A stretch of DNA of 10,273 nt from Sulfolobales archaeon (GTDB taxonomy: Archaea > Thermoproteota > Thermoprotei_A > Sulfolobales > AG1), in NCBI GenBank assembly GCA_038867615.1, contig JAWBYA010000019.1, positions 1 through 10,273 of the forward strand, given 5' to 3'. Positions 3 through 10,273 of the stretch are shown one piece after another; within the stretch, counting starts at the first letter, position 1, and each line of letters opens with the position of its first letter. Under the pieces are notes generated by a model. It was not told the DNA's origin. It saw nothing but the letters and a program-made list of their open reading frames with translations, and did not search any database. Both the position numbers and the translations under genes were made by a program.

Positions 3-2057
3 AAGGAGTTTGCGGATATACTTAAGATCTATGAGTTCTTCAACGTATTCGACGAGAACTATTGGTGGTACAGCAGGATCTATCGGTTATTCGAGAGAGA
101 GAACCTTTCGCCCGAGTATAAGCAGTTATGGAATATAAAATATGATGTGCTCCCCCGGGGCTCCTTCGAGAATGAGAGGCTTCATGGTCTTACAGGTTTC
201 TTAGTGAAGAACTATAGATATCTCAGATACCTCAATCCTGACTATGGCATTCTCTGGGAGATCCAGTTCCACACCGAGCTGGATCCTAAGGTGGCTTATC
301 TCGAAAAGGTTAATGAGGATTTTAGGAGGAGGACAACATATCTGAGGACACCTGATCCACAGTTCTTCAGGGACTATACGAAGTGTGCAGAGAAGATCTA
401 CATGGAGGTTGCTGGCGACTGCAATATACATGCAGCCTCCTATATATATGATAGGTTTTGCTCGGGGCGTACTATCCTCTGCGGGGCATACTCGGTTCAC
501 TGTATGAGTGATCAGAGGTTTGAGGGTGCTGCATCTTCAGACCCTTCAGTTCTTGTGATGCCTGTTGAGGAGTCAGCTGTAGGGGGTATCCTCGAGAGCT
601 GGCCGATAGGTCTATACAACGACATGGCACTGCTGGGCAACAGGAGTGCTGATCTGATGCCGGCAGTATATATCGAGTTCCCAACCCTCATAGTTAGGAG
701 GGAGATCGCTGATAACGAGATAGACCCTGATAGAAAGCCTGTTAAGAGAAGGTATAGGGCTGTGTACCTCAATGTATATGAGTTCGATGCTGAGATACCA
801 TATGCATATATCCACAGCTACCCGCCTCCGAGGTTTACCGATGGCTTCTTCAGGGAGGATATGGATCCATATCCTTCCCAGGTGTTCACAGCTGACTTCA
901 ACGAGGTTAAGATATACTCTGAGCATATATATGGCTTGAGACCCGTGTACAGCATAGTCAATAGCCTGAGGGCTGGGTATCTAGACCCTGTATCAGCTGC
1001 TGATCTATTCCATGCTGTCGGTATAGTGGCTGTTGCTACGAAGCCGGAGTGTATGGATGCCCTTCTAAGGGGCGAGACATCTAAAGATGTCCTCAGGATC
1101 TGCTGTGAGAACTGCTACAAGCCTGGGAAGGAGTTCCTTCCACACGGTGCTAGGCCGATCTTCAGGGGGAGGGGGATATGGGGTGGGGAGCTACTGACAA
1201 AGCATCTATCAAAGCCCATGTTCACAGCGGATGACTATATAGCTCTATATGCCAGGATTGCATATGCTGCTTCGAAGCACCTCGAGGAGATCACCCGGAG
1301 AACTGCCTCGATAGCCCTTTCAAGGTCTAAGAAGGATCCCAATAGATTTGCAAGCCCGGCGGGTGCATCTCTATTCGCAAGGCATCTAATGGATGTTGTC
1401 CTATCAGCGTATATGCTGACTAGGTGGGACTCGAGCTGCTCAGCAAAGCGTGGCGAGAAGGTCGTGGCTCTCAATGAGGAGAACCTGCTGAGGATCCTGA
1501 GGAGCCTGCCGAGGAACACACCACTAGGGATGCTCCCGTGGGAGGTTAGGAGGGGGCCTATGGCACCTGATGTACCATCGCTGGATGAGCTTGAGAGGAT
1601 ATTCGATGAGAAGATATGGCCGATCGCAAGGCCAGGCGGATATATCATCCCGAGGCCCGAGCTGATGTCCAACCTAGCCACTAGACCGCTCTACAAGGGT
1701 CTAGCAATAGTATCTACCCTTGGAGAGGGGCACGAGGTCTCCAGATTCATACTTAGGAGTATTGGGGAGAGGATAGAGGTGCTGAGGAGGAGGATGGAGG
1801 ATGCACTGAGAGAGGCCGACTCACCGAGCGAGGCCTCGGTTTATGAGGAGCTCAAGAGGATCCCACCAGAGAGGCTGGGAACAGCAATACCGAGCAAAGA
1901 TGCGTTGGGACGGGCTAGGATCGCTGCCTCGAAGAGATACAGGGTCATAGCAGATGAGTATGGAAGAGCACTCAAAGCAATTGGAAAGGCCCTGAAATGG
2001 TTCGGAGTAGCAGAAGATCTACTGGCAAGGATCGAAGAGATCGTCGGAAAAATATGA
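3..2057 (+). CDS. Large hypothetical protein, 5'-partial (at least 684 aa)
   Basis: The frame of the listed 147..2057 ORF is also open from base 3 (KEFADILKIYEFFNVFDENYWWYSRIYRLFERENLSPEYKQLWNIKYDV-LPRG...), so the real start lies upstream of the window. Codon usage matches neighbouring genes. It has a CCENC Cys cluster and a helical, charged C-terminus. No family recognised. Confidence 0.85.
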   Translation, partial: KEFADILKIYEFFNVFDENYWWYSRIYRLFERENLSPEYKQLWNIKYDVLPRGSFENERLHGLTGFLVKNYRYLRYLNPDYGILWEIQFHTELDPKVAYLEKVNEDFRRRTTYLRTPDPQFFRDYTKCAEKIYMEVAGDCNIHAASYIYDRFCSGRTILCGAYSVHCMSDQRFEGAASSDPSVLVMPVEESAVGGILESWPIGLYNDMALLGNRSADLMPAVYIEFPTLIVRREIADNEIDPDRKPVKRRYRAVYLNVYEFDAEIPYAYIHSYPPPRFTDGFFREDMDPYPSQVFTADFNEVKIYSEHIYGLRPVYSIVNSLRAGYLDPVSAADLFHAVGIVAVATKPECMDALLRGETSKDVLRICCENCYKPGKEFLPHGARPIFRGRGIWGGELLTKHLSKPMFTADDYIALYARIAYAASKHLEEITRRTASIALSRSKKDPNRFASPAGASLFARHLMDVVLSAYMLTRWDSSCSAKRGEKVVALNEENLLRILRSLPRNTPLGMLPWEVRRGPMAPDVPSLDELERIFDEKIWPIARPGGYIIPRPELMSNLATRPLYKGLAIVSTLGEGHEVSRFILRSIGERIEVLRRRMEDALREADSPSEASVYEELKRIPPERLGTAIPSKDALGRARIAASKRYRVIADEYGRALKAIGKALKWFGVAEDLLARIEEIVGKI

Positions 2058-2094
2058 TCATCTAACCTCCCAGCCCTAAATTCTGCAACATATA

Positions 2095-2138
<44 letters not shown>

Positions 2139-2185
2139 GGTTATGGAATAGCTTATCCAGGCCACGCCATTGTTTAGGAGGGTGT

Positions 2186-2959
2186 ATGCCGCAGATTAGT
2201 AGATGGACTTTCATGTTCTTCATAATACTGAGCATGATGGTTATAGTGATATTCGCCCAGGCTGGGATATCGCCGCAGACACTACCGTGGCTGACAATCC
2301 TCGTGATATCATATATTGTTGGATCTATCTTCGCATTCTTCGGACATATATTGATACCTAGGCTCGTGAGGATCTATCTTGGTGATGTTAGGATAGAGAA
2401 CGATGTTATAATAGTCTGTGGGAGGGATGGGCAGAGGCCCGAGGATAACTGCACAGCTGCCATGGCATTCAAGCTCCTACCCCTCCAGCCTGTGAGCGAT
2501 ATGCAGGATGAGCAGGTCAAGGCACTCCTAACAAGTGTCGAGGGTGCTGTCTTCGGGATGCCCCTGGGGACTCTATACTGCATACACAAGACAGAGGATC
2601 CACTGATACCCGCTGAGCTCAAGAGGCTCCAGGCCGAGATAAAGGGTGCACAGCTCCAGGCCAACGCACCTAGGAGGACTATATTCTCCGCAGCACAGGC
2701 TGTTAAGCTCGAGAGCCTACAGAGGGAGATGGCCAGGCTTATGAGGAGCAGGGCTGTAGCAGCTATACAGTTCATCATGATACAGGCTAGGGGGAGAACA
2801 GATGTTGAGGCTGTTAGCAGGGTCAAGACAATGGCTCAGCAGGTTGAGAGCATAGCACAGCAGATCGGGTGCACGGCGATAAAGCTGAGCGGGATCAACC
2901 TGAGGAACCTCCTAGAGATCATGCTAATGGATAGAGCTGTGAGGTGGGTAGAGACATGA
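2186..2959 (+). CDS. Membrane protein with two N-terminal TM helices; putative conjugation/T4SS-associated (PrgI / VirB4 N-terminal-like) protein
   Basis: RBS AGGAGGGTG just before the ATG. Two hydrophobic segments in about residues 8-57, a central coiled-coil-like stretch, and a C-terminal pattern 'AVSRVKTMAQQVESIAQQIGCTAIKLSGINLRNLL' resembling the end of VirB4-N/PrgI-type domains. The CDS is solid; the function is pattern recognition only. Confidence 0.55.
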   Translation: MPQISRWTFMFFIILSMMVIVIFAQAGISPQTLPWLTILVISYIVGSIFAFFGHILIPRLVRIYLGDVRIENDVIIVCGRDGQRPEDNCTAAMAFKLLPLQPVSDMQDEQVKALLTSVEGAVFGMPLGTLYCIHKTEDPLIPAELKRLQAEIKGAQLQANAPRRTIFSAAQAVKLESLQREMARLMRSRAVAAIQFIMIQARGRTDVEAVSRVKTMAQQVESIAQQIGCTAIKLSGINLRNLLEIMLMDRAVRWVET

Positions 2960-3378
2960 AGAGGATTAGGGGGATAGGAGAGGTAGTCGGTGCCGTGCTA
3001 CTCATAGGGGTGGCTATGGCTGCGTTCCTCATATTCTACCCAATAGCGTATAACATAATAGCTAGCGGATCCACAGCACAGCCACCAAGAGCATCGATCG
3101 CAGACTTCGCAGTGCTAGCAGATCGGAGGACAGCGGTCGCATATATATCAGCTGTGGGTGGGAGTGTAAGGACAACACTTGTCAAGGTAGACGCATACGT
3201 GGTATGCAGTACAAACGTTTACAGTGCATCATACAGTATAAATGTAGATATAGACCCAGGTGCCTCTAAGGAGTTCACAGCCAAGCTGGACTTCGGGAGC
3301 ACGATAAACTGTGCACAGCCTGTTATAAGGGTTCACACGATCTTCAGAATGCCCGATGGTAGCTATGTTATAACATAG
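2956..3378 (+). CDS. Archaeal type IV pilin-like protein (class III signal peptide)
   Basis: MKRIRG^IGEVVGAVLLIGVAMAAFLIFY: short basic leader, RG cleavage site, hydrophobic N-helix, then a beta-rich domain with two Cys. The ATG at 2956 overlaps the upstream stop (ATGA) and follows GAGGTGGG, so it is preferred over the GTG at 2944. Confidence 0.85.
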   Translation: MKRIRGIGEVVGAVLLIGVAMAAFLIFYPIAYNIIASGSTAQPPRASIADFAVLADRRTAVAYISAVGGSVRTTLVKVDAYVVCSTNVYSASYSINVDIDPGASKEFTAKLDFGSTINCAQPVIRVHTIFRMPDGSYVIT

Positions 3379-3385
3379 CCTTTCC

Positions 3386-4780
3386 CTAGACATCGATCCA
3401 GTTTATACCTGTTAGAAGATCTCTGAACCTCCTATCCATAGCAATGACCCTCGCCCCGGCCCTCGCAGCCCTGCCAATAGCCTGGATAGCCCTTATCCTA
3501 GCTATCTCTCTATAGCCATTCACGCCGAGCACCCTTGATAGAACCTCTACCTCGGGGGACTTGGATGGGTATGGAGCACCGACTAGGATCATGAGATCGT
3601 GTGGAGGTGGTTCCACACCCTCCGTGTATATCCCCCCTGCAACATCCTCCAACACGATCCTCCCCCTGGCATCACCTAGCAAGGGTGATACAGCCTTCAT
3701 AACCTCCCTGCTCTGATAGACTATGAAGACCCTGCTATGTCTCTTCACAAGCTCCTGGATCTCAGAGGCTATCGATCTGTACATCTCATCTCCCCTAGAG
3801 CTATACTCAGTAGTATATCTATCCATGATCTCTACCCTCACAAGGGGTTTAGAGCCTACCTCGATCACCTCAGCCCTTCTGAAGAGACCAAGCCTAACAG
3901 CACTCATATAAACAGATCTATCCATGTCTGTGAATGGGTATCCTCCGACAACAGCGTATATAGATCCCCCGTGTTCGAAGCAGATCTTTCTACACCTCAT
4001 CAGGATCTGGATCTCCTCGGGAGCCCTGCCACCGATCTTCTCGTATATCGCAGATGCTATCTCGGCAAGTGCCGATAGATCCCTCTCCTTCTTAAGACCA
4101 TATGCAAGCCTATACAGCTCGTAGTCAGCGGATTCCCTGGCATGGGATGAAACGATCCTGGAGACCTCTGACAGCCTCTCCCTGGATATAGGCCTCACAG
4201 CCTCCTCATACATAGATATTATAGAGTGGTACTCGTCGAAAACCCTGATCCTGTCCCTGGATATGATCTGTGGGTGGTGGATCGCATACTTATACGTTGC
4301 GACAACCCTCGGAGATGTCTCTACAAGCCTTGCGAGGGATGGGTATAGGCATGCACCTATCTCCCTAGCACGCTCCCTAATAGCCTGTGAACCGCTGAAC
4401 TGGGCACCATATACAGCCCTTATCCTCTGCTCGGTAACAGCTGTATCGCATTTACCAGAGAGCCTCATGATCCTGCAGAACTTCTCAAAAGGGGTGGGAT
4501 CCCCTGGCTCTCTCTTGTAGCAGACCTCATCCATACCATATGCCCTAACAACACTCCCACCGCCGCCCCTCCTATAGTGCTCCAGAAACGTATCAAGCTC
4601 ATTATGTGTCCTAGCGATATACAGAAACCTTGCCTCGGATGCGAGCTCCCTAGCAGCCTGGAGAGTCTTCCCATAGCCAGGGGGTGCCACAACAACAGCA
4701 GATCCACCGCCCCTAGCTATCCTAAAAGCCTCCCTGATCTCCTCCTTCTCAGATAAGAACCTATCGAGGGTTTTTATCAT
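3386..4780 (-). CDS. XPD/Rad3/DinG-family SF2 helicase with Fe-S cluster (compact, 464 aa)
   Basis: Walker A APPGYGKT, motif Ia YIARTHNE, four Cys (DEVC, EKFC, SGKC, GACLY), motif II VFDEYH, III MSA, V TEGVE, VGAPYP, VI QAIGRAAR, terminal MDRRF. The start at 4780 (MIKTLDRF) is preceded by RBS GGTGGGT. Confidence 0.9.
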   Translation of the reverse strand: MIKTLDRFLSEKEEIREAFRIARGGGSAVVVAPPGYGKTLQAARELASEARFLYIARTHNELDTFLEHYRRGGGGSVVRAYGMDEVCYKREPGDPTPFEKFCRIMRLSGKCDTAVTEQRIRAVYGAQFSGSQAIRERAREIGACLYPSLARLVETSPRVVATYKYAIHHPQIISRDRIRVFDEYHSIISMYEEAVRPISRERLSEVSRIVSSHARESADYELYRLAYGLKKERDLSALAEIASAIYEKIGGRAPEEIQILMRCRKICFEHGGSIYAVVGGYPFTDMDRSVYMSAVRLGLFRRAEVIEVGSKPLVRVEIMDRYTTEYSSRGDEMYRSIASEIQELVKRHSRVFIVYQSREVMKAVSPLLGDARGRIVLEDVAGGIYTEGVEPPPHDLMILVGAPYPSKSPEVEVLSRVLGVNGYREIARIRAIQAIGRAARAGARVIAMDRRFRDLLTGINWIDV

Positions 4781-4812
4781 ACCCACCAAAAACCAGCAGG
4801 AAAAAAGCAACC

Positions 4813-4830
4813 ACAAACAGATCTATTTGT
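4813..4830. promoter_or_regulatory. Near-perfect palindrome in helicase/phosphatase divergent intergenic region (candidate operator)
   Basis: ACAAACAGATCTATTTGT: 8 of 9 arm positions are complementary, centred in the 80-bp gap 4781-4860. Confidence 0.45.
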
Positions 4831-4860
4831 CCAAATCAACAAATAATATTGGATGGGAAC

Positions 4861-5451
4861 ATGGAGGTAGCTGATCTCGGATGGTTTGTTGTATATACTC
4901 GATCGAGACCTGCTTCGAGATTTCTAGCTATCTTTGATCTAGACGGTGTTATCTTCGACTCCACAGAGAGGTTTAGAAAATCGCTAGAAGAGGCAGGTGT
5001 TTCCGAGGAGGAGTTTAAAAAAGATCATAGGAAGAGAAGCAGGGTATGGGAGATCTTTCTAAGCAACAAATACCTAGAACTGGATAAGCCAGTGCAGGAC
5101 GCTCTAACATCTATGGAGAGGGCGTATATGCTTGGATTATCGGCTGTGATCCTGAGTGGGAGACCTAAAAGAATGGCAAGCAAAACAATCGAGATGCTGG
5201 ATAGAATAGGAGCCAGATACGACCTATTGATCCTCAGGGGAGATGCCAACAAGGAGAAGGATCATATATACAAGGCAAGGGCAATGAGATGGCTCGTAGA
5301 ACATGAGTACGAGGTTGTGGAGATCCACGACGACTCAGAAGAGGTTCTAAACAAATTAAGGGAATTAGCTCCAGACGCGAAGCTATATCTATGGATCGGC
5401 GGGAGAAAAACAGAGCTGGGAAGCAATAGAAGAACTGCCATCACAGCCTAG
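4861..5451 (+). CDS. HAD-superfamily phosphatase, T4 PNK 3'-phosphatase / class B acid phosphatase-like
   Basis: Motif I IFDLDGVIFD, motif II LSGRP, LILR...DHIYK (motif III Lys), motif IV IHDDSEEV. The start is uncertain (TTG 4849 or ATG 4861). Confidence 0.88.
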   Translation: MEVADLGWFVVYTRSRPASRFLAIFDLDGVIFDSTERFRKSLEEAGVSEEEFKKDHRKRSRVWEIFLSNKYLELDKPVQDALTSMERAYMLGLSAVILSGRPKRMASKTIEMLDRIGARYDLLILRGDANKEKDHIYKARAMRWLVEHEYEVVEIHDDSEEVLNKLRELAPDAKLYLWIGGRKTELGSNRRTAITA

Positions 5452-5704
5452 ATTCTCTGCTCAGCATCAAATATATAAGCATCGTAGCGATAATCACTAT
5501 GAACCCTAAACCACCCGGCATTGGGTGGGGGGAGATTGAAAAGTTGCTCATGATGAATATCGAGACTGTGTTTGAGGAGCACGAGATCGCAAGTTCTCTG
5601 CCAGTTAGATAGAGTATTAGGTGTAGATTTGATGTTCTAAATGGTATCTCCTCTGTGCTAGCTATTCTGCTTACTATTTCTATCATCTCTCTGCATAGAT
5701 CCAT
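5441..5704 (-). CDS. Small hypothetical protein with C-terminal TM anchor
   Basis: The ATG at 5704 is preceded by RBS GGTGA. C-terminal GLGFIVIIATMLIYLML hydrophobic helix followed by basic residues. Overlaps the phosphatase 3' end by 11 nt. Confidence 0.6.
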   Translation of the reverse strand: MDLCREMIEIVSRIASTEEIPFRTSNLHLILYLTGRELAISCSSNTVSIFIMSNFSISPHPMPGGLGFIVIIATMLIYLMLSRESRL

Positions 5705-6044
5705 CGCTATCACCTTCAGAACTTACAGGTATTGGGTCTCTCTCATCTACCTCGATCTCTATGTGATCGCCGACTTGTTTTGCGGATACCGGTGTTCCCG
5801 GGATCTCCTTCTCCTCAACACCTCCCCCGTCTAGAAACACAGCTATCCTTGTGCGTCTAACCTCTATCTGCCTAGCCTTTCCACCACATCTTACCCTGAT
5901 GAATGTCCTGTCACCCCTCCTGATCATGTACATGTCAGAGGCTATCTCTCGAAAGCCATCCTCAACAGCATTGATATACAGCTCAACACCTGCTAGGAAA
6001 GCGAGAGCAACAGATCTGATTTTAGATAGGATTTTCCGCAGCAT
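5658..6044 (-). CDS. Hypothetical protein (128 aa)
   Basis: ATG at 6044, typical codon usage, basic then hydrophobic N-terminus followed by a beta-rich region. Fills the gap divergent from tfb and overlaps the next gene by 47 nt. Confidence 0.65.
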   Translation of the reverse strand: MLRKILSKIRSVALAFLAGVELYINAVEDGFREIASDMYMIRRGDRTFIRVRCGGKARQIEVRRTRIAVFLDGGGVEEKEIPGTPVSAKQVGDHIEIEVDERDPIPVSSEGDSDGSMQRDDRNSKQNS

Positions 6045-6054
6045 AAGAACACCA

Positions 6055-6078
6055 CAATTATTTTTCGAAATTTAATTG
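6055..6078. promoter_or_regulatory. 24-bp AT-rich dyad in the 43-bp divergent gap upstream of tfb
   Basis: CAATTA-TT-TTTCGAAA-TT-TAATTG: 10 of 12 arm positions are complementary. Confidence 0.5.
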
Positions 6079-6087
6079 GGAGGCTGT

Positions 6088-6990
6088 ATGGAGGATAGAT
6101 GCTCAGAGATTATTCATGATAAAAGTAGAGGTCTTGTTATCTGTGCCGATGATGGTCGTGTTATAGAGGAGAGGACTGTTGATTTTGAGTTCGAGCCGAG
6201 GGGATATACATATGAGGAGATGCTTGAGAGGGATAGACTTGGATCTCCGATGCCTCATGGGATGGAGAACATCTATATCTCAACCGATTTCGGGACAAGC
6301 TATACATCAGATGGAAAGAGAATGGATATAGATGATAGGTTCAGGAGCAGGAGGCTTAGAAAGCTGCATATGAGGACGATGGTTGAGGATAGGGATAAGA
6401 GGTATATTCTCAGAGCAAGAAAGGTTATAGATCAAATAGCATCTGCCTTCAACCTGCCAAAGGAGGTTGTGAACCAAGCACTCATAATATATTCAGAAGC
6501 ATATAGAGCTGGACTGCTATCTGGGAGACCGGTTGAGTGTCTAGCGGCTGCAGCTATATACATAGCATGCAGATCAATGGGTATTGCTAGAAGCTCTAGA
6601 GAGATAGAGAATGTGATATCAAAGGAGGTTAAATTCTACAGCTGTCTGAGGGCTATATATGAGAAGATAGATCTTGAGAGGCTCGGTGTAAAACCAGCCG
6701 ATATGGTTAAGCCACTGATATCGAGGATCATAAGCAGCCTGGGATTAGGAGGATATGTTGAGGAGAAGGCATATAAGATCCTGGGGATAGCCAGAGAGAA
6801 AGGAGCAACATCGGGAAGATCACCACCTGTTATAGCGGCTGCATGTGTATATCTAGCATGCACCGCAGCCAAGATCAAGGTCAGTACTAAAGAGATAGCA
6901 GGTGCAGCAGGCGTTAGCGATACAGCAACAAAGACAGTGGCAAGGGAGATAATGAAGATCTTGAAGCAGGGGGCGGTGAACAGGAAATGA
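6088..6990 (+). CDS. tfb: Transcription initiation factor IIB (TFB) paralogue, diverged
   Basis: Zn-ribbon-like IIHDKSRGLVICADDGRVIEE, B-linker RLRKLH, and two cyclin repeats (GRPVECLAAAAIYIACR; GRSPPVIAAACVYLAC) with a terminal HTH. The ATG at 6088 follows RBS GGGAGG. Confidence 0.95.
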   Translation: MEDRCSEIIHDKSRGLVICADDGRVIEERTVDFEFEPRGYTYEEMLERDRLGSPMPHGMENIYISTDFGTSYTSDGKRMDIDDRFRSRRLRKLHMRTMVEDRDKRYILRARKVIDQIASAFNLPKEVVNQALIIYSEAYRAGLLSGRPVECLAAAAIYIACRSMGIARSSREIENVISKEVKFYSCLRAIYEKIDLERLGVKPADMVKPLISRIISSLGLGGYVEEKAYKILGIAREKGATSGRSPPVIAAACVYLACTAAKIKVSTKEIAGAAGVSDTATKTVAREIMKILKQGAVNRK

Positions 6991-7847
6991 GGATCCCCAG
7001 GGTTAGGGTGATATCATATACCGTGGATGGTGAGAGGCTTGTTGCTGCTTCTTCTAAGAGGAGCCTTTCTTCTAGGGATGTCTCGGAGATATTCGAGGCT
7101 ATGGGGGATGATGAGGTTGAGACTTGGATTAGGGAGACTCTTAGGAGGGGTCATCTAAGTCCTTGGGAGCATTCTGTATATACCTTCGAGGTTATATGCT
7201 CCAGGGTTTGTTCCCACCAGCTTGTTAGGCATAGGATTGCTAGCTATACACAGCTTAGCCAGAGGTATAATGAGAGGCTTCTAGAGCCAAGGGATCCCAA
7301 GTACTGGCTTGATATCTCGGATAGGGTTTTGAAGGGGGATCGAGAGGCTATAGAGGTGGTTTCCAGAGCATTCTATCTAGGCGATCCAGACTGGCCGCAG
7401 GATCTTAGGCTACAGATGGCGTCTGAATATGCTAGATCTGTTGCTATGTATTGGGAGCTGCGTGGCAGGGGATTATCTAGAGAGGATGCCAGGTATATCC
7501 TCCCGCAGGCGATCGTAACCAAGGTTGTTGTCACAATGAATGCTAGGGAGATCCTTCACTTCCTCGGGCTGAGGATGTGCACACATGCACAGACCGAGAT
7601 AAGGCTTGTGGCGTGGATGCTGAGGGAAGAGCTAATGAAGATCCACCCAAGGCTATTCAAATACGCAGCACCATACTGCATCCTAGACAACAACCTAGTC
7701 TCGAAAGAACCCACAACCCTAGAAGATATAGTCGAGGGAAGAGCACAACCATCTATAGAAAGATGCAGAGAACTAGTCCCAAGAGAAGGGATAAGAAACT
7801 GTGTACTGCATAGCATGAAACTATATAGAACAACACATGAGGGATAA
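6987..7847 (+). CDS. thyX: FAD-dependent thymidylate synthase ThyX
   Basis: GHLSPWEH, SRVCSHQLVRHRIASYTQLSQRY (RHRx7S signature), EDARYILP, TMNARE, HAQTEIR. ATGA overlap with the tfb stop. Confidence 0.97.
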   Translation: MRIPRVRVISYTVDGERLVAASSKRSLSSRDVSEIFEAMGDDEVETWIRETLRRGHLSPWEHSVYTFEVICSRVCSHQLVRHRIASYTQLSQRYNERLLEPRDPKYWLDISDRVLKGDREAIEVVSRAFYLGDPDWPQDLRLQMASEYARSVAMYWELRGRGLSREDARYILPQAIVTKVVVTMNAREILHFLGLRMCTHAQTEIRLVAWMLREELMKIHPRLFKYAAPYCILDNNLVSKEPTTLEDIVEGRAQPSIERCRELVPREGIRNCVLHSMKLYRTTHEG

Positions 7848-7849
7848 AC

Positions 7850-8329
7850 ATGAAAGAGATAGAGATAGCGAAGAAGATAACTCTACTTAATCCATCAGTG
7901 TTTCTGAGTGTATCAGGTGGAAAAGATTCCGCTGTAGCGGCGCATTACGCTCTAGCACTGCTTGAGAAAGCTGGTTTCGACAGATCAAATATAGTGATGA
8001 TCCACGCGGTTACGCCACTCTCACTGCCAGAGAACCTAGAATATGTGAAGAAGCTAGCTAATTTCATGAATGTGAAACTTGAGATAGCACAATATGATCC
8101 ACGGTACGGCTTAGACTACATTGCGAATGGAGGAGGGTTGCCTTGGATCATGAACAGGTGGTGTATGGATAAGTGGAAGGTTAGACCATTACGATCGATA
8201 ATGAGTAAATATCGATATCCACATGTTGTCACACTTGGGATCAGAACCTCTGAATCATTGAGAAGATTCAACATCTACTCAGACAAAGAACCGCTATACT
8301 TTGAAACGAGGGAGAAAAGATATGTGTGA
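7850..8329 (+). pseudogene. PAPS reductase/DndC-like PP-loop protein, C-terminally truncated
   Basis: SVSGGKDS PP-loop, LPENLEYV, RWCMDKWKVRPL, LGIRTSESLRR. It stops at 159 aa, just before the expected PIxxW and terminal GCxxC motifs. Confidence 0.7.
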
Positions 8330-8826
8330 CATCTATGCTGGTAGCACTGCTGAAATATGGTTTGAAGCTACAGCAAGAACCGGTTGCAGGTGTTCATGTA
8401 GATCATAGATTCTACCACCCAGTAGACGATATAAAGGTGGATGTGATGGTCGATGGATTCAGAGAGGAGGGGAGAATAGTGTGGAACCTAGCACCAGTGC
8501 TAAGAAGATATGGGAGCCTAACACTTGAGCACGCAGTGATCGCAAAACTAGTTAGAAGGGCATTCGATAAAAGAACAGATGCATATGATGTCTCCGTAAG
8601 CATCCCATCCATAGATATTGATAGGTTCACAGAGATATATAGAGAGTTGAGAAATACAAACCAAGAGCTAGCGGAAAGGGTCGAGCCACACCTCAACATA
8701 GTAGAAGAATATATCAGAGAGGACTTTCCAGCCACAGAAGCATCAATAATACTTACAAGGCTAAGAGAGATAAGAAACAGAATCAGAAGCGTGGGGGAGG
8801 CAAAAAGATCTGCCGTGAAAAGCTAG
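8326..8826 (+). CDS. Hypothetical protein resembling the C-terminal part of a pol-beta-type (AbiEii-like) nucleotidyltransferase; possibly 5'-truncated
   Basis: TLEHAVIAKLVRRAFDKRTDAYDV resembles the 'LExLIAxKL...RxxDxYD' motif, and KVDVMV could supply the third Asp. No N-terminal GG..DxD motif is present. GTGA overlap with the upstream stop. Confidence 0.5.
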   Translation: MTSMLVALLKYGLKLQQEPVAGVHVDHRFYHPVDDIKVDVMVDGFREEGRIVWNLAPVLRRYGSLTLEHAVIAKLVRRAFDKRTDAYDVSVSIPSIDIDRFTEIYRELRNTNQELAERVEPHLNIVEEYIREDFPATEASIILTRLREIRNRIRSVGEAKRSAVKS

Positions 8827-8830
8827 ATCT

Positions 8831-9331
8831 TCATAGCACAGCGAATACTTTGATCGAGCCGTCGAAGCTATATATAATGAATGGCCCTTCCTTAGACCCT
8901 GGCATTCCTGGGGATCCCTGTGGCATCCCCGGAAGAGATATTCCCTTGATATTTGGTTTTTCGTTGATGAGCTTCTTAATAGCCTCTGCGGGCACGTGCC
9001 CTACTATTAGATAGCCTTCTACTATTGATACGTGGCATGATCTCAGCTCAACAGGGATTCCCAGCTTATCCATCAACCCATCTATATCATCTATAACTCT
9101 AACCCCTACCTCAGCACCCAAGCTAGAGAGATACCCTGCATATCTAGTGCAGCACACACATGCAGGAGACTTATATAGTGTTATGCTCAACCCACTAAGA
9201 TCAATACTGCGATCTCCAGAACCGCCAATACCAGCCATGTAGATCACAGCAACAACTAATATAGATACCGGGATCAGAAGCAGGGCAGCCCTTCTAAGGA
9301 TAGATCTCCTTCCCCTCGATCTCTTCCCCAT
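8831..9331 (-). CDS. DUF411 family (CopG-like) exported metal-binding protein
   Basis: LYKSPACVCC, LRSCHV, GHVPAEAI and PGMPQGSPGM motifs; Arg-rich N-terminus plus TM/signal helix; RBS GGTGGGG. Confidence 0.92.
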   Translation of the reverse strand: MGKRSRGRRSILRRAALLLIPVSILVVAVIYMAGIGGSGDRSIDLSGLSITLYKSPACVCCTRYAGYLSSLGAEVGVRVIDDIDGLMDKLGIPVELRSCHVSIVEGYLIVGHVPAEAIKKLINEKPNIKGISLPGMPQGSPGMPGSKEGPFIIYSFDGSIKVFAVL

Positions 9332-9738: not shown

Positions 9739-9774
9739 ACAATATACTATGCAGTGTTCAATCAATCCAGATTC

Positions 9775-9782
9775 TTTTTATC
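9775..9782 (+). promoter_or_regulatory. Possible TATA box for the wHTH gene
   Basis: TTTTTATC, 26-33 nt upstream of the ATG at 9808. Confidence 0.3.
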
Positions 9783-9807
9783 TCTCATCGATATTGTTGG
9801 GAAGCAT

Positions 9808-10273
9808 ATGGCTTCTAAATCTAGGGTTAGGTCTAGGAGGAGGAGCTATTTCCCACCATCTATTGTTGCCAGACTTTGCCCGGAGTCTGGAGAGCCTAGC
9901 TATGAAACCATTGCTCTCAAGATGCTTGTTGAGAGGAGTGGGAAGGATCTTTTGCATGCTAGCGAGGTTGCCAAGGAACTCTCAATAAATGTTGGAAGGG
10001 CATATTATATTCTTTCGAGGCTTGAGAAATTGGGACTTGCGAAGAGCTATAGGGATCCTGATAACGGTAGAGTTGGCTTCACAGTAAATCTAGATAGAAG
10101 GTGGAAGAAGGAACTTGCCTATGCCATTATGACTGGGCTTAGAACAAGATCCCTGGGAGAGCTATGTAGAAGAGTTGTTGAGAATATGAATATGCTTCAA
10201 TACCGGAAAAGCGATGTATCCAAAGAGGTTGGGAGAGCTAAAGAAGAAGTAGCAGAGGAGAAGGAGTCACACA
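9808..10273 (+). CDS. Winged helix-turn-helix DNA-binding protein (TrmB/IclR/MarR-like HTH), 3'-partial
   Basis: Not in the ORF track because it has no stop in the window. MASKSRVRSRRRSYFPPS...LHASEVAKELSINVGRAYYILSRLEKLGLAKSYRDPDNGRVGFTVN... is a classic wHTH with wing, open to the end of the window (155 codons). Confidence 0.85.
   Translation, partial: MASKSRVRSRRRSYFPPSIVARLCPESGEPSYETIALKMLVERSGKDLLHASEVAKELSINVGRAYYILSRLEKLGLAKSYRDPDNGRVGFTVNLDRRWKKELAYAIMTGLRTRSLGELCRRVVENMNMLQYRKSDVSKEVGRAKEEVAEEKESH

What the first reader, a model, noticed from the sequence alone, without database searches (positions are those of the whole stretch)
2186..8826. Candidate self-regulated DNA-transfer/repair module: pilin + T4SS-like membrane protein + XPD helicase + 3'-phosphatase + its own TFB + ThyX
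Seen: these genes lie within 6.7 kb, tightly packed among orphans, and the TFB and helicase deviate from housekeeping consensus. Established: in Sulfolobales an alternative TFB (truncated TFB3) induces Ups type IV pili and the Ced DNA importer after DNA damage, and those genes are not clustered with tfb3 or thyX. Inference: this may be part of a large mobile or integrated element (conjugative megaplasmid, ICE or large virus) of a Thermoproteota host. It would carry its own basal transcription factor, dTMP supply, DNA end-processing and contact apparatus, a combination I do not recognise from described crenarchaeal plasmids or viruses.
Basis: partly seen in the sequence, partly recalled or inferred. 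Interest (0 to 1): 0.8.

Follow-up and report, generated by a model that had tools for sequence, protein, structure and literature searches.

The report
Mobile element fragment carrying own TFB
This contig is a piece of a large, patchwork mobile element from uncultured hot-spring archaea that carries its own very divergent transcription initiation factor joined to a thymidylate synthase gene taken from a host, a theme already known from other archaeal viruses and conjugative elements.

Summary
The genes are real. The window is a whole 10.3-kb contig (C19) of a 28-contig Desulfurococcales MAG. It holds a giant ORFan, a translationally coupled 2-TM protein and type IV pilin-like pair, a divergent DinG/XPD-like helicase, a HAD/PNKP-type phosphatase, and a tight TFB-ThyX-PP-loop-o11 operon. 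"T4SS-like" is not supported for the membrane protein.

The mobile-element inference holds. C19:1-5828 recurs at 99.7% nt in another species of the genus, whose core DNA is only about 65-80% identical. Four other small contigs of this MAG are joined in one 23-kb contig there. A backbone protein occurs in 2 of 201 genomes of the order. The host keeps its own TFB1, XPD and ThyX elsewhere. The element ThyX branches outside the vertical clade, and its 5' end is 97% identical to the other species' chromosomal thyX. The TFB has no relative above 37% identity among 1.84 billion representatives.

The six genes are not a conserved unit; only the membrane-pilin pair is. No VirB4, VirB6 or pilus ATPase lies in the window. 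Element-borne TFBs, ThyX and PNK-like phosphatases are already recorded in crenarchaeal viruses and thaumarchaeal ICEs. Verdict: an undescribed mosaic element family, class unresolved, of moderate interest.

The parts
3..2057 (+). o1: C-terminal 684 aa of a giant ORFan. It is 1061 aa in the G001:C74 copy and is a backbone gene of the element family.
   Evidence: No family in Pfam, NCBIfam, PHROGs or PADLOC. No hit in the phage collection or the ESM Atlas. 29-30% identical homologues lie near o2-o3 in L034-L036. Full length read from G001:C74.
2093..2139 (+). Hairpin repeat that is the 3' tail of PaREP1-family genes. Here it is a solo remnant; the G001 copy has an intact 89-aa PaREP1 gene at this spot.
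   Evidence: 8 copies in G000, all on small contigs. Very many copies across the family's genomes. PaREP1 PF05942 E 4.6e-10 for the inserted gene. Many contigs in all four laid runs end on it.
2186..2959 (+). o2: 257-aa protein with 2 N-terminal TM helices and a roughly 195-aa soluble domain. Function unknown. Always followed by o3.
   Evidence: TM scan. No family. Found only in a narrow family at 55-70% identity: 3 clusters among 5.8 billion proteins, 5 metagenome loci and C18. No longer fused form found. AF2 pLDDT 53.8.
2956..3378 (+). o3: type IV pilin-like protein with a class III signal-peptide-like N-terminus and a beta-sandwich domain. Translationally coupled to o2 by an ATGA overlap.
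3386..4780 (-). o4: divergent DinG/XPD-family SF2 helicase with four conserved Cys (putative 4Fe-4S) and a DEYH box. About 130 aa shorter than the host XPD.
   Evidence: 28% identical paralogue on C11; the host XPD-like gene is on C2.
4861..5451 (+). o5: HAD-superfamily phosphatase of the PNKP phosphatase-domain type. It has no kinase domain.
   Evidence: PF25109 35.6 bits, above cut-off; phrog_415 E 2.9e-25; PDB Pnkp1 4xrp E 1.3e-3. A DLDG motif is visible in the translation. Homologues: 51% identity in L035, 33% in virus SYV2.
5441..5713 (-). o6: doubtful ORF, probably the remnant of a small gene. An indel hotspot lies at 5541/5542.
   Evidence: G001:C74 has 225 extra nt and run X1 has 172 extra nt at 5541/5542. 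The G001 version encodes 109 aa.
5658..6044 (-). o7: 128-aa conserved hypothetical protein, a backbone gene of the element family.
   Evidence: 33-35% identical homologues on C11 and in L034 and L036, each next to a 772-782-aa protein. No family.
6088..6990 (+). o8: full-length but highly divergent TFB. An A/T-rich TATA-like box lies about 22-29 nt upstream of the ATG.
6987..7847 (+). o9: ThyX, a second copy in the genome. Its start overlaps the TFB stop (ATGA).
7850..8329 (+). o10: short (159 aa) PP-loop / PAPS-reductase-like protein with an SGGKDS motif. It covers only profile positions 2-118 of 175.
   Evidence: PF01507 E 1.2e-10; phrog_424 E 2.3e-21; PADLOC SspD E 1.6e-11.
8326..8826 (+). 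o11: 166-aa hypothetical protein, last gene of the TFB operon.
   Evidence: No family. 45% identical to the C-terminal part of a 298-aa wHTH (TrmB) protein on C23.
8831..9331 (-). o12: DUF411 membrane-anchored protein. 94% nt identical to a gene at the end of a chromosomal contig of G001.
   Evidence: PF04214 E 4.4e-24. G001:C8 match. Paralogues on C17 and C4.
9754..10272 (+). o13: winged-helix regulator-like ORF that runs off the contig end.
   Evidence: Only sub-threshold MarR_2/TrmB hits. PADLOC Csa3 E 8.7e-4. In run X9 a contig joins position 10273 to the hairpin repeat, so the contig ends at a repeat.

Best explanation
The window is a fragment of a large (tens of kb, possibly over 50 kb), mosaic, horizontally mobile genetic element. 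The element circulates among uncultured hot-spring Desulfurococcales of one genus. The window is not a dedicated DNA-transfer/repair machine. It joins three kinds of DNA:

1. Backbone genes of the element family: giant ORFan o1, the coupled membrane-protein and type IV pilin-like pair o2-o3, and o7.
2. A DNA-metabolism pair: a DinG/XPD-like FeS helicase and a PNKP-type phosphatase.
3. A variable cargo operon, TFB-ThyX-PP-loop protein-o11, followed by DUF411 and a wHTH gene.

Inferred working:
- The element's TFB keeps both cyclin folds. Its B-reader and the helix that in canonical TFBs reads the BRE are diverged. It would recruit host RNA polymerase, with host TBP or the TBP-like proteins seen in sister elements, to a subset of promoters. 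It would thereby express the co-transcribed ThyX, giving dTMP for element replication.
- Helicase and phosphatase would serve replication or end-repair of the element's DNA.
- The pilin-like protein would have to be processed and assembled by host type IV pilus machinery, because the element contigs carry no assembly ATPase. It would change the cell surface, for adhesion, mating contact or exclusion.

Shown: gene identities, mobility and accessory status, the foreign origin of thyX, and the orphan status of the TFB.
Inferred: every functional step.
For: Mobility:
- C19:1-5828 matches G001:C74 at 98.9-99.7% nt. Core regions of the two species-level genomes match at about 65-80%.
- G001:C27 (23 kb) equals G000 C15-end + C24 + C20 + C27 at 93-99.7%.
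- Pieces of C19, including the TFB, occur with 0 differences in contigs of hot-spring runs from four studies. A contig in run X1 bridges 4679-7052, from the phosphatase to the thyX 5' end.

Accessory status:
- No C19-type TFB in the 40 relatives searched; best match 39%.
- The backbone 900-aa protein is in 2 of 201 genomes of the order.
- Paralogous modules lie on other small contigs.
- The host keeps TFB1 (C13), ThyX (C8) and an XPD-like gene (C2).

ThyX capture:
- The C8 copy is 96-97% identical to congeners.
- The C19 copy is 80-82% identical and branches outside that clade (94/91 support).
- Its first 113 nt are 97% identical to G001's chromosomal thyX.

TFB:
- The next best relative is 37% identical among 1.84 billion representatives.
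- It lies outside the host TFB1 clade.
- GPEWRAF is replaced by EFEPRGY, and the C-terminal TEVTIRNRY-type helix by SDTATKTVA.

Operon structure.

Element context:
- ParA-like, KaiC-like, PLD, PD-(D/E)XK and MoxR-AAA+VWA genes.
- An AAA_10/DUF87 (HerA/VirB4-superfamily) ATPase.
- TBP-like proteins.

Precedents.
Against: - No hallmark of any element class was found on the element contigs. The 3 integrase hits are on C3 and C10. No capsid or relaxase gene was recognised. The only Prim-Pol hit is on C25, which is not linked to the element.
- No att site, tRNA gene or circular junction was found.
- 3 IMG/VR scans found nothing, and the phage collection has no backbone homologue.
- 0 of 137 G000 spacers and 0 of 130 G003 spacers match C19.
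- Both genomes are MAGs. The shared contigs could belong to one host only and be binned into both, or C19 could come from a G001-like strain.
- Coverage relative to the chromosome could not be measured. Logan contigs give one depth figure per contig, and only C19 was laid.
- TFB, KaiC, MoxR and vWA genes are also reported next to chromosomal type IV pilus loci (PMC4858521). Part of this gene content is therefore not diagnostic of mobility.
- All functional statements are inference. No RNA run holds the sequence.
Confidence: 0.7

Rival explanations
1. The element is a virus or provirus, for example a large spindle-shaped or otherwise unclassified crenarchaeal virus. TFB, ThyX, phosphatase and PP-loop protein are takeover and nucleotide-metabolism genes. 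The giant ORFans and the pilin-like protein are virion or surface proteins.
For: - Sulfolobales virus YNP2 (34.8 kb) carries a TFB, a 'polynucleotide kinase' 33% identical to o5, a 155-aa PAPS reductase and giant ORFs.
- ARV2 and ARV3 carry a TFB.
- ThyX is in ATSV, STSV1/2, SMV3, ARV1 and SRV.
- PHROG hits exist for o4, o5, o8, o9 and o10.
- A MoxR-type AAA + VWA pair sits on sister contig C18. My recollection is that Acidianus two-tailed virus has such a pair.
Against: - No capsid or other virion hallmark was recognised.
- No match for the TFB, o2 or the 900-aa family in IMG/VR.
- No match for o1 in the phage collection.
- No CRISPR spacer hit on C19.
- ParA-like and HerA/VirB4-type ATPases fit plasmids as well.
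Confidence: 0.25
2. The element is an integrative-conjugative element or conjugative plasmid. The pilin, the 2-TM protein, the AAA_10/DUF87 ATPase and ParA on linked contigs form a mating apparatus, and the TFB is its regulator, as proposed for thaumarchaeal ICEs.
For: - PMC6563490 (passages): all thaumarchaeal ICEs encode TFIIB, together with pilins, prepilin peptidase and VirB4/VirD4.
- The AAA_10/DUF87 ATPase has a weak TrwB hit and sits next to ParA-like and 887-aa genes on G001:C27 = G000:C20.
- Near-identical copies occur in two species.
Against: - Only one small (463 aa) HerA/VirB4-superfamily ATPase was seen.
- No VirB6/CedA/TedA-like multi-TM protein, VirD4, relaxase or integrase was found on the element contigs.
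- o3 is a type IV pilin type, not the VirB2/CedA1/TedC type.
- No pilus assembly ATPase is on the small contigs.
- The element is only partly assembled, so absence is weak evidence.
Confidence: 0.25
3. It is a non-mobile, hypervariable chromosomal island around a type IV pilus-related locus. Such loci in archaea commonly carry TFIIB, KaiC, MoxR and vWA genes. The near-identity with G001 would reflect recombination between co-occurring relatives, or binning.
For: - PMC4858521 (passages) lists TFIIB (arCOG01981), KaiC, vWA and MoxR as common in archaeal T4P loci.
- C11 joins element-like genes to a CRISPR-cas locus that is 95% identical to a chromosomal locus of G003.
- No integrase or att site was found.
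Against: - 99.7% identity against a background of about 65-80%, over at least 28 kb in two contigs.
- Backbone protein in 2 of 201 genomes.
- Two to three divergent copies of the backbone within one genome.
- A foreign thyX allele.
- No T4P ATPase or TadC nearby.
Confidence: 0.15
4. One reading: the six genes are one co-regulated DNA-transfer/repair module, functionally analogous to TFB3-Ups-Ced of Sulfolobales but clustered and carried on an element.
For: - The genes lie within 6.7 kb.
- TFB, helicase, phosphatase and pilin are the right kinds of parts.
- In Sulfolobales, TFB3 co-regulates the Ups, Ced and HerA operons (PMC9905601, passage).
Against: - The genes lie in at least four transcription units on both strands.
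- Linkage is not conserved beyond the near-identical copy.
- o8 is a full-length TFB, not a truncated TFB3 type.
- No Ced/Ted component is present.
- o2 could not be tied to any T4SS family.
Confidence: 0.07

Closest known systems
Thaumarchaeal integrative-conjugative elements (Krupovic et al. 2019, PMC6563490; passages read)
   Same: Mobile elements of the TACK group that all encode a TFIIB/TFB homologue. They also carry pilins, HerA/VirB4-class ATPases and partition proteins, with non-syntenic, recombining modules.
   Different: - Those ICEs have a VirB4 + VirD4 pair, VirB6, VirB3, TadC, FlaI/PilT, a prepilin peptidase and integrases. Here only one small AAA_10/DUF87 ATPase and a ParA-like gene were found on linked contigs, and no integrase.
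- Different phylum-level host.
- Here the TFB is coupled to ThyX, not to ParB.
Sulfolobales virus YNP2 (NC_028992.1), and rudiviruses ARV2 and ARV3
   Same: Crenarchaeal viruses annotated with a full-length TFB. YNP2 also has a PNK-like HAD phosphatase (33% identity to o5 over 123 aa), a short PAPS-reductase gene and giant ORFs.
   Different: - The TFBs are only 23-28% identical to o8.
- No backbone gene (o1, o2, o3, o7, the 900-aa protein) is shared.
- YNP2 has an integrase and a virion protein; none was found here.
- The YNP2 and ARV3 records annotate no ThyX.
Archaeal type IV pilus loci with associated TFIIB, KaiC and MoxR/vWA genes (Makarova, Koonin, Albers 2016, PMC4858521; passages read)
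   Same: Pilin-like genes co-occur with TFIIB homologues (arCOG01981 type with two cyclin domains), KaiC-family ATPases and MoxR + vWA pairs. All of these are seen on C19 and its sister contigs C12 and C18.
   Different: - Those loci are defined by a secretion ATPase and a TadC membrane platform, which are absent from the element contigs.
- The present genes are on DNA shared at 99.7% between species.
Ced / Ted DNA-import systems (Beltran et al. 2023, PMC9905601; passages read)
   Same: Crenarchaeal DNA exchange tied to repair genes, and in Sulfolobales to an alternative TFB (TFB3).
   Different: Ced and Ted are defined by a VirB4-like ATPase, a 6-7-TM VirB6-like channel and a VirB2-like lipid-binding pilin. 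None is in the window. o3 is a type IV pilin type and o2 has 2 TM helices.

Membership tests
Archaeal TFB / TFIIB | Two cyclin-fold repeats (core domain) | tested here: met
   PF00382, 2 stretches, 104.7 bits against a 23.6 cut-off. Both repeats are also found in the six-frame search.
Archaeal TFB / TFIIB | N-terminal Zn ribbon (four Cys/His ligands) | tested here: inconclusive
   No PF08271 hit. Only 3 Cys in the first 23 residues of the 6076 reading (2 if translation starts at the ATG at 6088). The host's own TFB1 also lacks a canonical CxxC...CxxC.
Archaeal TFB / TFIIB | Conserved B-reader (GPEWRAF-type motif) and an orthologue-level score | tested here: not met
   The motif reads EFEPRGY. 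NF001658 scores 187.9 bits against a 384 cut-off. The protein lies outside the host TFB1 clade. It is therefore a TFB-family member but not a housekeeping TFB1 orthologue.
   o8 is full length with both repeats.
ThyX (flavin-dependent thymidylate synthase) | Thy1 domain above the cut-off, and the RHRxxS signature (signature recalled) | tested here: met
   PF02511 183.4 bits; TIGR02170 155.8 against 87.9. RHRIAS is present in the translation.
XPD/Rad3-DinG FeS helicases | SF2 motifs, a 4-Cys FeS domain, and the DEAD_2 and Helicase_C_2 domains | tested here: inconclusive
   Walker A (PGYGKT), DEYH, four aligned Cys and a QAIGRAAR motif are present. Helicase_C_2 scores 19.6, below its 25.3 cut-off. 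DEAD_2 is not detected at E <= 0.01 in C19. PADLOC typeIV_DinG scores 54.6 bits. 2vl7 XPD matches at E 6e-4.
PNKP-type HAD polynucleotide 3'-phosphatase | HAD_PNKP domain with the DxDG nucleophile motif (motif recalled) | tested here: met
   PF25109 35.6 bits against 27.6. DLDG is in the translation. There is no kinase P-loop domain, and substrate specificity was not tested.
Archaeal type IV pilins | Class III signal peptide followed by a hydrophobic helix; Pilin_N domain; helix plus beta-sandwich fold | tested here: inconclusive
   An N-terminus of the form basic residues, G/A, then I/A-S/G-E-V/I and a hydrophobic stretch is conserved in 7 of 7 homologues. The fold fits and the top hit is 8fk7. 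Pilin_N is below its cut-off (15.5-16.7 against 25.2) and TMq is only 0.36.
T4SS / Ced / Ted DNA-transfer systems | VirB4-like ATPase, VirB6/CedA-like 6-7-TM channel, VirB2-like pilin | tested here: not met
   None is in the window. o2 has 2 TM helices. o3 is of the T4P type. A HerA/VirB4-superfamily ATPase exists only on the linked contigs C20 and C18.
Integrative elements (ICE or provirus) | Integrase and att sites at a chromosomal junction | tested here: not met
   The PF00589 hits are only on C3 and C10. No tRNA gene lies on 14 element or related loci or in the window. The assemblies are fragmented, so this is weak evidence.

The most novel reading that the evidence does not exclude
C19 and its sister contigs represent an undescribed family of large mosaic mobile elements of hot-spring Desulfurococcales. 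The family carries its own set of basal transcription initiation factors: at least two deeply divergent full-length TFB lineages, small TFB-like proteins and single-repeat TBP-like proteins. It would thus be partly autonomous in promoter recognition. It recruits host genes such as thyX directly behind its TFB.
Probability: 0.3. Interest if true: 0.7.

Novelty: new variant of a known kind. Interest (0 to 1): 0.45.

Why it matters
How archaeal viruses and plasmids redirect the host's eukaryote-like transcription machinery is largely unknown. A review I read in passages (PMC5569661) states that archaeal viruses are thought to rely on host TBP and TFB.

This element pairs an orphan TFB, altered exactly in the B-reader and in the helix expected to read the BRE, with a captured ThyX. 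Sister copies carry TBP-like genes. Together these give a concrete, testable case of element-specified promoter selection in Thermoproteota.

The find also marks about 100-200 kb of accessory DNA in these MAGs as shared mobile DNA. That matters for binning, for species delineation and for reading 'extra' TFB paralogues in archaeal genomes.

Tried and rejected
- Structure of o2: the AF2 model with 8 sequences gave pLDDT 53.8 and was not used for fold search.
- ESM Atlas for o2: the nearest clusters are unnamed (0.93). TraC-like/PrgI clusters score 0.79-0.80, which is within the chance range. For o1 there was no usable hit.
- Fused forms of o2: none among 3116 longer candidates.
- IMG/VR scans with o8, o2 and the 900-aa family alignment: no relative found.
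- Genome-contig scan with the o2 alignment: none.
- Phage collection: no hit for o1. Only generic AAA hits for the C18 ATPase.
- Rfam and tRNA scans of the window: nothing.
- CRISPR: 0 of 137 G000 spacers and 0 of 130 G003 spacers match C19 or any element gene. One G000 spacer hits a small repeat (see Noticed in passing).
- Element-specific promoter motif: AGCTTTTT is enriched upstream of element genes (6 of 72 against 4 of 1222). But it sits at -26 to -40 before chromosomal genes too, looks like the host BRE/TATA type, and is absent from C19. Rejected as an element signature.
- Expression: no RNA holder listed.
- Coverage ratio to the chromosome: not obtainable. The runs are Logan contigs, and only one read-laying run was allowed.
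- Complex prediction for o2-o3: not used, because I make no binding claim.
- Literature: six searches surfaced no description of such an element in Desulfurococcales. They were not exhaustive, and supplementary files, which may list arCOG neighbourhoods, were closed.

Full report
WHAT THE WINDOW IS

The window is the whole of contig C19 (10,273 bp) of a 2.22-Mb, 28-contig genome, 94% complete by the tool's figure. Records with close ThyX relatives are titled 'MAG: Desulfurococcales archaeon'. Runs that hold the sequence are hot-spring metagenomes. No flanks exist within the contig. Its right end abuts a dispersed repeat: in run X9 a contig joins position 10273 to the hairpin at 2095.

GENES

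| ORF | Coordinates, strand | Reading |
|---|---|---|
| o1 | 3-2057 + | C-terminal 684 aa of an ORFan that is 1061 aa in a sister copy |
| o2 | 2186-2959 + | 257 aa, two TM helices, no family |
| o3 | 2956-3378 + | pilin-like |
| o4 | 3386-4780 - | DinG/XPD-like helicase |
| o5 | 4861-5451 + | HAD/PNKP-type phosphatase |
| o6 | 5441-5713 - | doubtful ORF |
| o7 | 5658-6044 - | conserved hypothetical |
| o8 | 6088-6990 + | TFB |
| o9 | 6987-7847 + | ThyX |
| o10 | 7850-8329 + | short PP-loop / PAPS-reductase-like protein |
| o11 | 8326-8826 + | hypothetical |
| o12 | 8831-9331 - | DUF411 |
| o13 | 9754-10272 + | wHTH-like, open at the contig end |

Junctions read directly from the DNA: o2/o3 and o8/o9 overlap as ATGA, o9/o10 are 2 nt apart, and o10/o11 overlap as GTGA. 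So o2-o3 is one coupled pair and o8-o11 is one tight operon. An A/T-rich TATA-like box lies about 22-29 nt before the o8 ATG.

CHECK OF THE OBSERVATION

- TFB, ThyX and the phosphatase pass curated thresholds.
- The helicase is only weakly recognisable. Helicase_C_2 is below its cut-off, DEAD_2 is not detected, PADLOC DinG gives E 1.8e-15, and XPD 2vl7 gives E 6e-4. It aligns with the host XPD-like protein and a paralogue on C11 through Walker A, DE(Y/S/A)H, four Cys and the C-terminal motifs.
- The pilin call rests on three things. First, a class III signal-peptide-like N-terminus is conserved in 7 of 7 homologues (consensus recalled). Second, the AF2 model (pLDDT 83.9) is one long helix plus a 7-strand sandwich. 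Third, the top full-length Foldseek hit is the Pyrobaculum calidifontis type IV pilus, at E 2.8e-4 but TMq only 0.36. Pilin_N stays below its cut-off.
- The 'T4SS-like' label for o2 found no support.

ACCESSORY AND MOBILE STATUS

1. The host has its own copies: TFB1 on C13, two further chromosomal TFB paralogues on C1, ThyX on C8 and an XPD-like gene on C2. The five congeners each show three TFB matches. G000 shows five, the extras being on C19 and C12.
2. In the 40 relatives searched, the best match to o8 is 39% identical, and that match is the TFB1 orthologue.
3. A DNA search of the family's 14 genomes found C19:1-5828 in G001, a different species representative of the genus. It lies on contig C74 at 98.9-99.7% identity, with three indels:
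   - an 84-nt difference in o1;
   - an intact PaREP1 gene between o1 and o2;
   - 225 nt at position 5541/5542.
   Chromosomal stretches of the two genomes match at about 65-80%.
4. G001:C27 (23 kb) strings together G000 contigs C15 (end), C24, C20 and C27 at 93-99.7%. So several small contigs of this MAG are one shared element.
5. A 900-aa backbone protein of that element was found in 2 of 201 genomes of the order, namely G000 (two divergent copies) and G001.
6. Contigs of four hot-spring runs from four studies hold pieces of C19. These include TFB pieces with 0 differences. One contig in X1 bridges 4679-7052. The link from the left half through the TFB to thyX is therefore not an artefact of this one assembly, although X1 could be a sample related to the source.

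THYX

The C8 copy is 96-97% identical to congeners G002 and G003. The C19 copy is 80-82% identical and branches outside that clade but inside the family. In G001 the chromosomal thyX, recognised by its conserved left neighbour, breaks off at a contig end after 113 nt. Those 113 nt are 97% identical to C19 and 76% to G000:C8. The DUF411 gene o12 is likewise 94% identical to a gene at the end of a chromosomal G001 contig.

The simplest reading is that the element picked up thyX, and perhaps o12, from a G001-like host. thyX also breaks contigs in G005, and depth doubles over 6861-7546 in X1. Two alleles therefore seem to coexist in those samples. Recombination at thyX between element and chromosome is possible but was not tested.

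TFB

- Among 1.84 billion representatives the next best protein is 37% identical, and only 14 proteins reach E <= 1e-30.
- The word-indexed search of 5.8 billion proteins found only the protein's own cluster and two proteins at 29-30%.
- In a 38-row tree, o8 joins the other extra TFB (C12) outside a tight host TFB1 clade. Both are long branches, and the tool warns that the join may be false.
- The alignment shows the B-reader motif and the last helix of the second cyclin repeat replaced. That this helix reads the BRE is my recollection of TFB structures, not a result here.

THE ELEMENT FAMILY

The o2-o3 pair is the conserved core. It recurs on C18 (57% and 39% identity) and in 5 metagenome loci (55-70%).

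In loci L034-L036 the order is:
- PLD nuclease
- o1-like protein
- a 1250-aa protein
- o2-o3
- a TBP-like protein (PF00352, 26.1 bits against 22.9)
- o7-like protein
- a 782-aa protein
- a 900-aa membrane protein
- a ParA-like ATPase

The G000 homologues of these genes are scattered over C11, C12, C18, C20, C24, C26 and C27 at 35-60% identity. G000 therefore holds two or three divergent versions.

Sister contigs add:
- a KaiC-like ATPase, a second full TFB and small TFB-like proteins (below cut-off);
- a MoxR-type AAA + VWA pair and a PD-(D/E)XK nuclease;
- an AAA_10/DUF87 ATPase;
- TBP-like proteins on C26 and C11.

No type IV pilus assembly ATPase lies on any small contig. Integrases lie only on C3 and C10. 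The helicase, phosphatase, TFB and ThyX are not next to o2-o3 in any locus other than the near-identical G001 copy. L035 has an o5 homologue about 10 kb away.

COMPARISON WITH WHAT IS KNOWN

- Passages of PMC6563490 state that all thaumarchaeal ICEs encode TFIIB, together with VirB4/VirD4, VirB6, pilins and a prepilin peptidase.
- Passages of PMC4858521 list TFIIB (arCOG01981), KaiC, vWA and MoxR as frequent companions of archaeal type IV pilus loci.
- GenBank records annotate a TFB in Sulfolobales virus YNP2 and in rudiviruses ARV2 and ARV3. YNP2 also has a PNK-like phosphatase homologous to o5 and a short PAPS reductase.
- A figure legend of preprint 10.1101/2020.01.16.907410 lists both TFB and ThyX among rudivirus gene functions (one passage).
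- ThyX is in at least seven crenarchaeal virus species in the collection.
- Ced and Ted systems are defined by VirB4, VirB6 and VirB2 homologues (PMC9905601, passages), none of which is here.

An element-borne TFB with nucleotide-metabolism and end-processing genes is therefore a known theme. What looks new is this particular element family. It has no hit in IMG/VR or the phage collection and is restricted to two genomes of 201. It also shows a TFB-ThyX translational coupling and TBP-like genes.

WHAT STAYS OPEN

- The class of the element: virus, conjugative element, plasmid or island.
- Its true host, since both holders are MAGs.
- Whether it is integrated. C11 joins element-like genes to a CRISPR array and cas genes that are 95% identical to a chromosomal locus of G003.
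- All function.

VERDICT

The mobile-element inference is right. The 'single self-regulated transfer/repair module' reading and the claim of an unprecedented combination are not supported. Interest is moderate, at 0.45.

Noticed in passing
window 2093-2139; G001:C74 (L082) 6907-7176: The 45-nt GC hairpin repeat is the 3' tail of PaREP1-family genes. G001 has an intact 89-aa PaREP1 gene where C19 keeps only its last 12 nt plus the hairpin. The repeat occurs in very many copies in all 13 other genomes of the family. In G000 it was found only on small contigs (8 copies, none on C1-C10), often near contig ends.
   Followed up: partly
G001:C27 (L104 12475-12616; L105 about 2810-2960): A roughly 140-nt MITE-like insert flanked by the hairpins is present twice in G001's copy of the element. 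It is absent at the same sites in G000 (C20, C27). Spacer 16 of G000's large CRISPR array (C1:626878-634761) matches it at 37 of 38 and 36 of 38 aligned positions of the 40-nt spacer.
   Followed up: partly
G000:C26:5486-6076; G000:C11:7769-8050; L036:11275-11913: Single-repeat TBP-like proteins (PF00352, 26-30 bits, above the 22.9 cut-off) are encoded on element contigs. In L034-L036 the gene sits directly downstream of the o2-o3 pair.
   Followed up: partly
G001:C68 end; G005:C3 start and C6 end; window 6861-7546: thyX breaks contigs in two congeners, and summed contig depth doubles over thyX in run X1. This suggests that chromosomal and element alleles coexist and perhaps recombine.
   Followed up: partly
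window 2956-3378: Between G000 and G001 the pilin-like o3 has 3 amino-acid changes in 144 residues. o2, o4 and o5 (933 aa together) are identical. Variants at 3185 and 3225 recur in runs X1, X8 and X9.
   Followed up: no
G000:C11:15504-16574 and downstream: A second CRISPR array (17 repeats) with cas-like genes is 95% identical to G003:C5. It lies directly beside about 15 kb of element-like genes, including an XPD-like paralogue, a PD-(D/E)XK nuclease and a TBP-like gene.
   Followed up: partly
G000:C12:17353-18390 and 11931-12503; C27:941-1486: C12 carries a second extra full-length TFB (345 aa, very long branch). Two small Zn-ribbon plus single-cyclin TFB-like ORFs, below Pfam cut-offs, lie on C12 and C27. 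C12 was not found in any of the five congeners.
   Followed up: partly
G000:C5:19428-19469: One G003 CRISPR spacer matches a large G000 contig at 39 of 42 positions, about 2 kb from a DUF87 ATPase gene. This may mark another integrated element.
   Followed up: no
window 275-357, 631 and 5541/5542: Indel hotspots. An 84-nt in-frame segment of o1 is absent in G001. Run X1 has a 12-nt insertion at 631. There are 172-nt (X1) and 225-nt (G001) insertions at 5541/5542 that change the small ORF o6.
   Followed up: no
G000:C10 and C25: C10 (41 kb, GC 48.7%) holds two integrase hits and two DUF87 ATPase hits. C25 holds the genome's only Prim-Pol hit. These are probably further mobile DNA, and no link to C19 was shown.
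   Followed up: no
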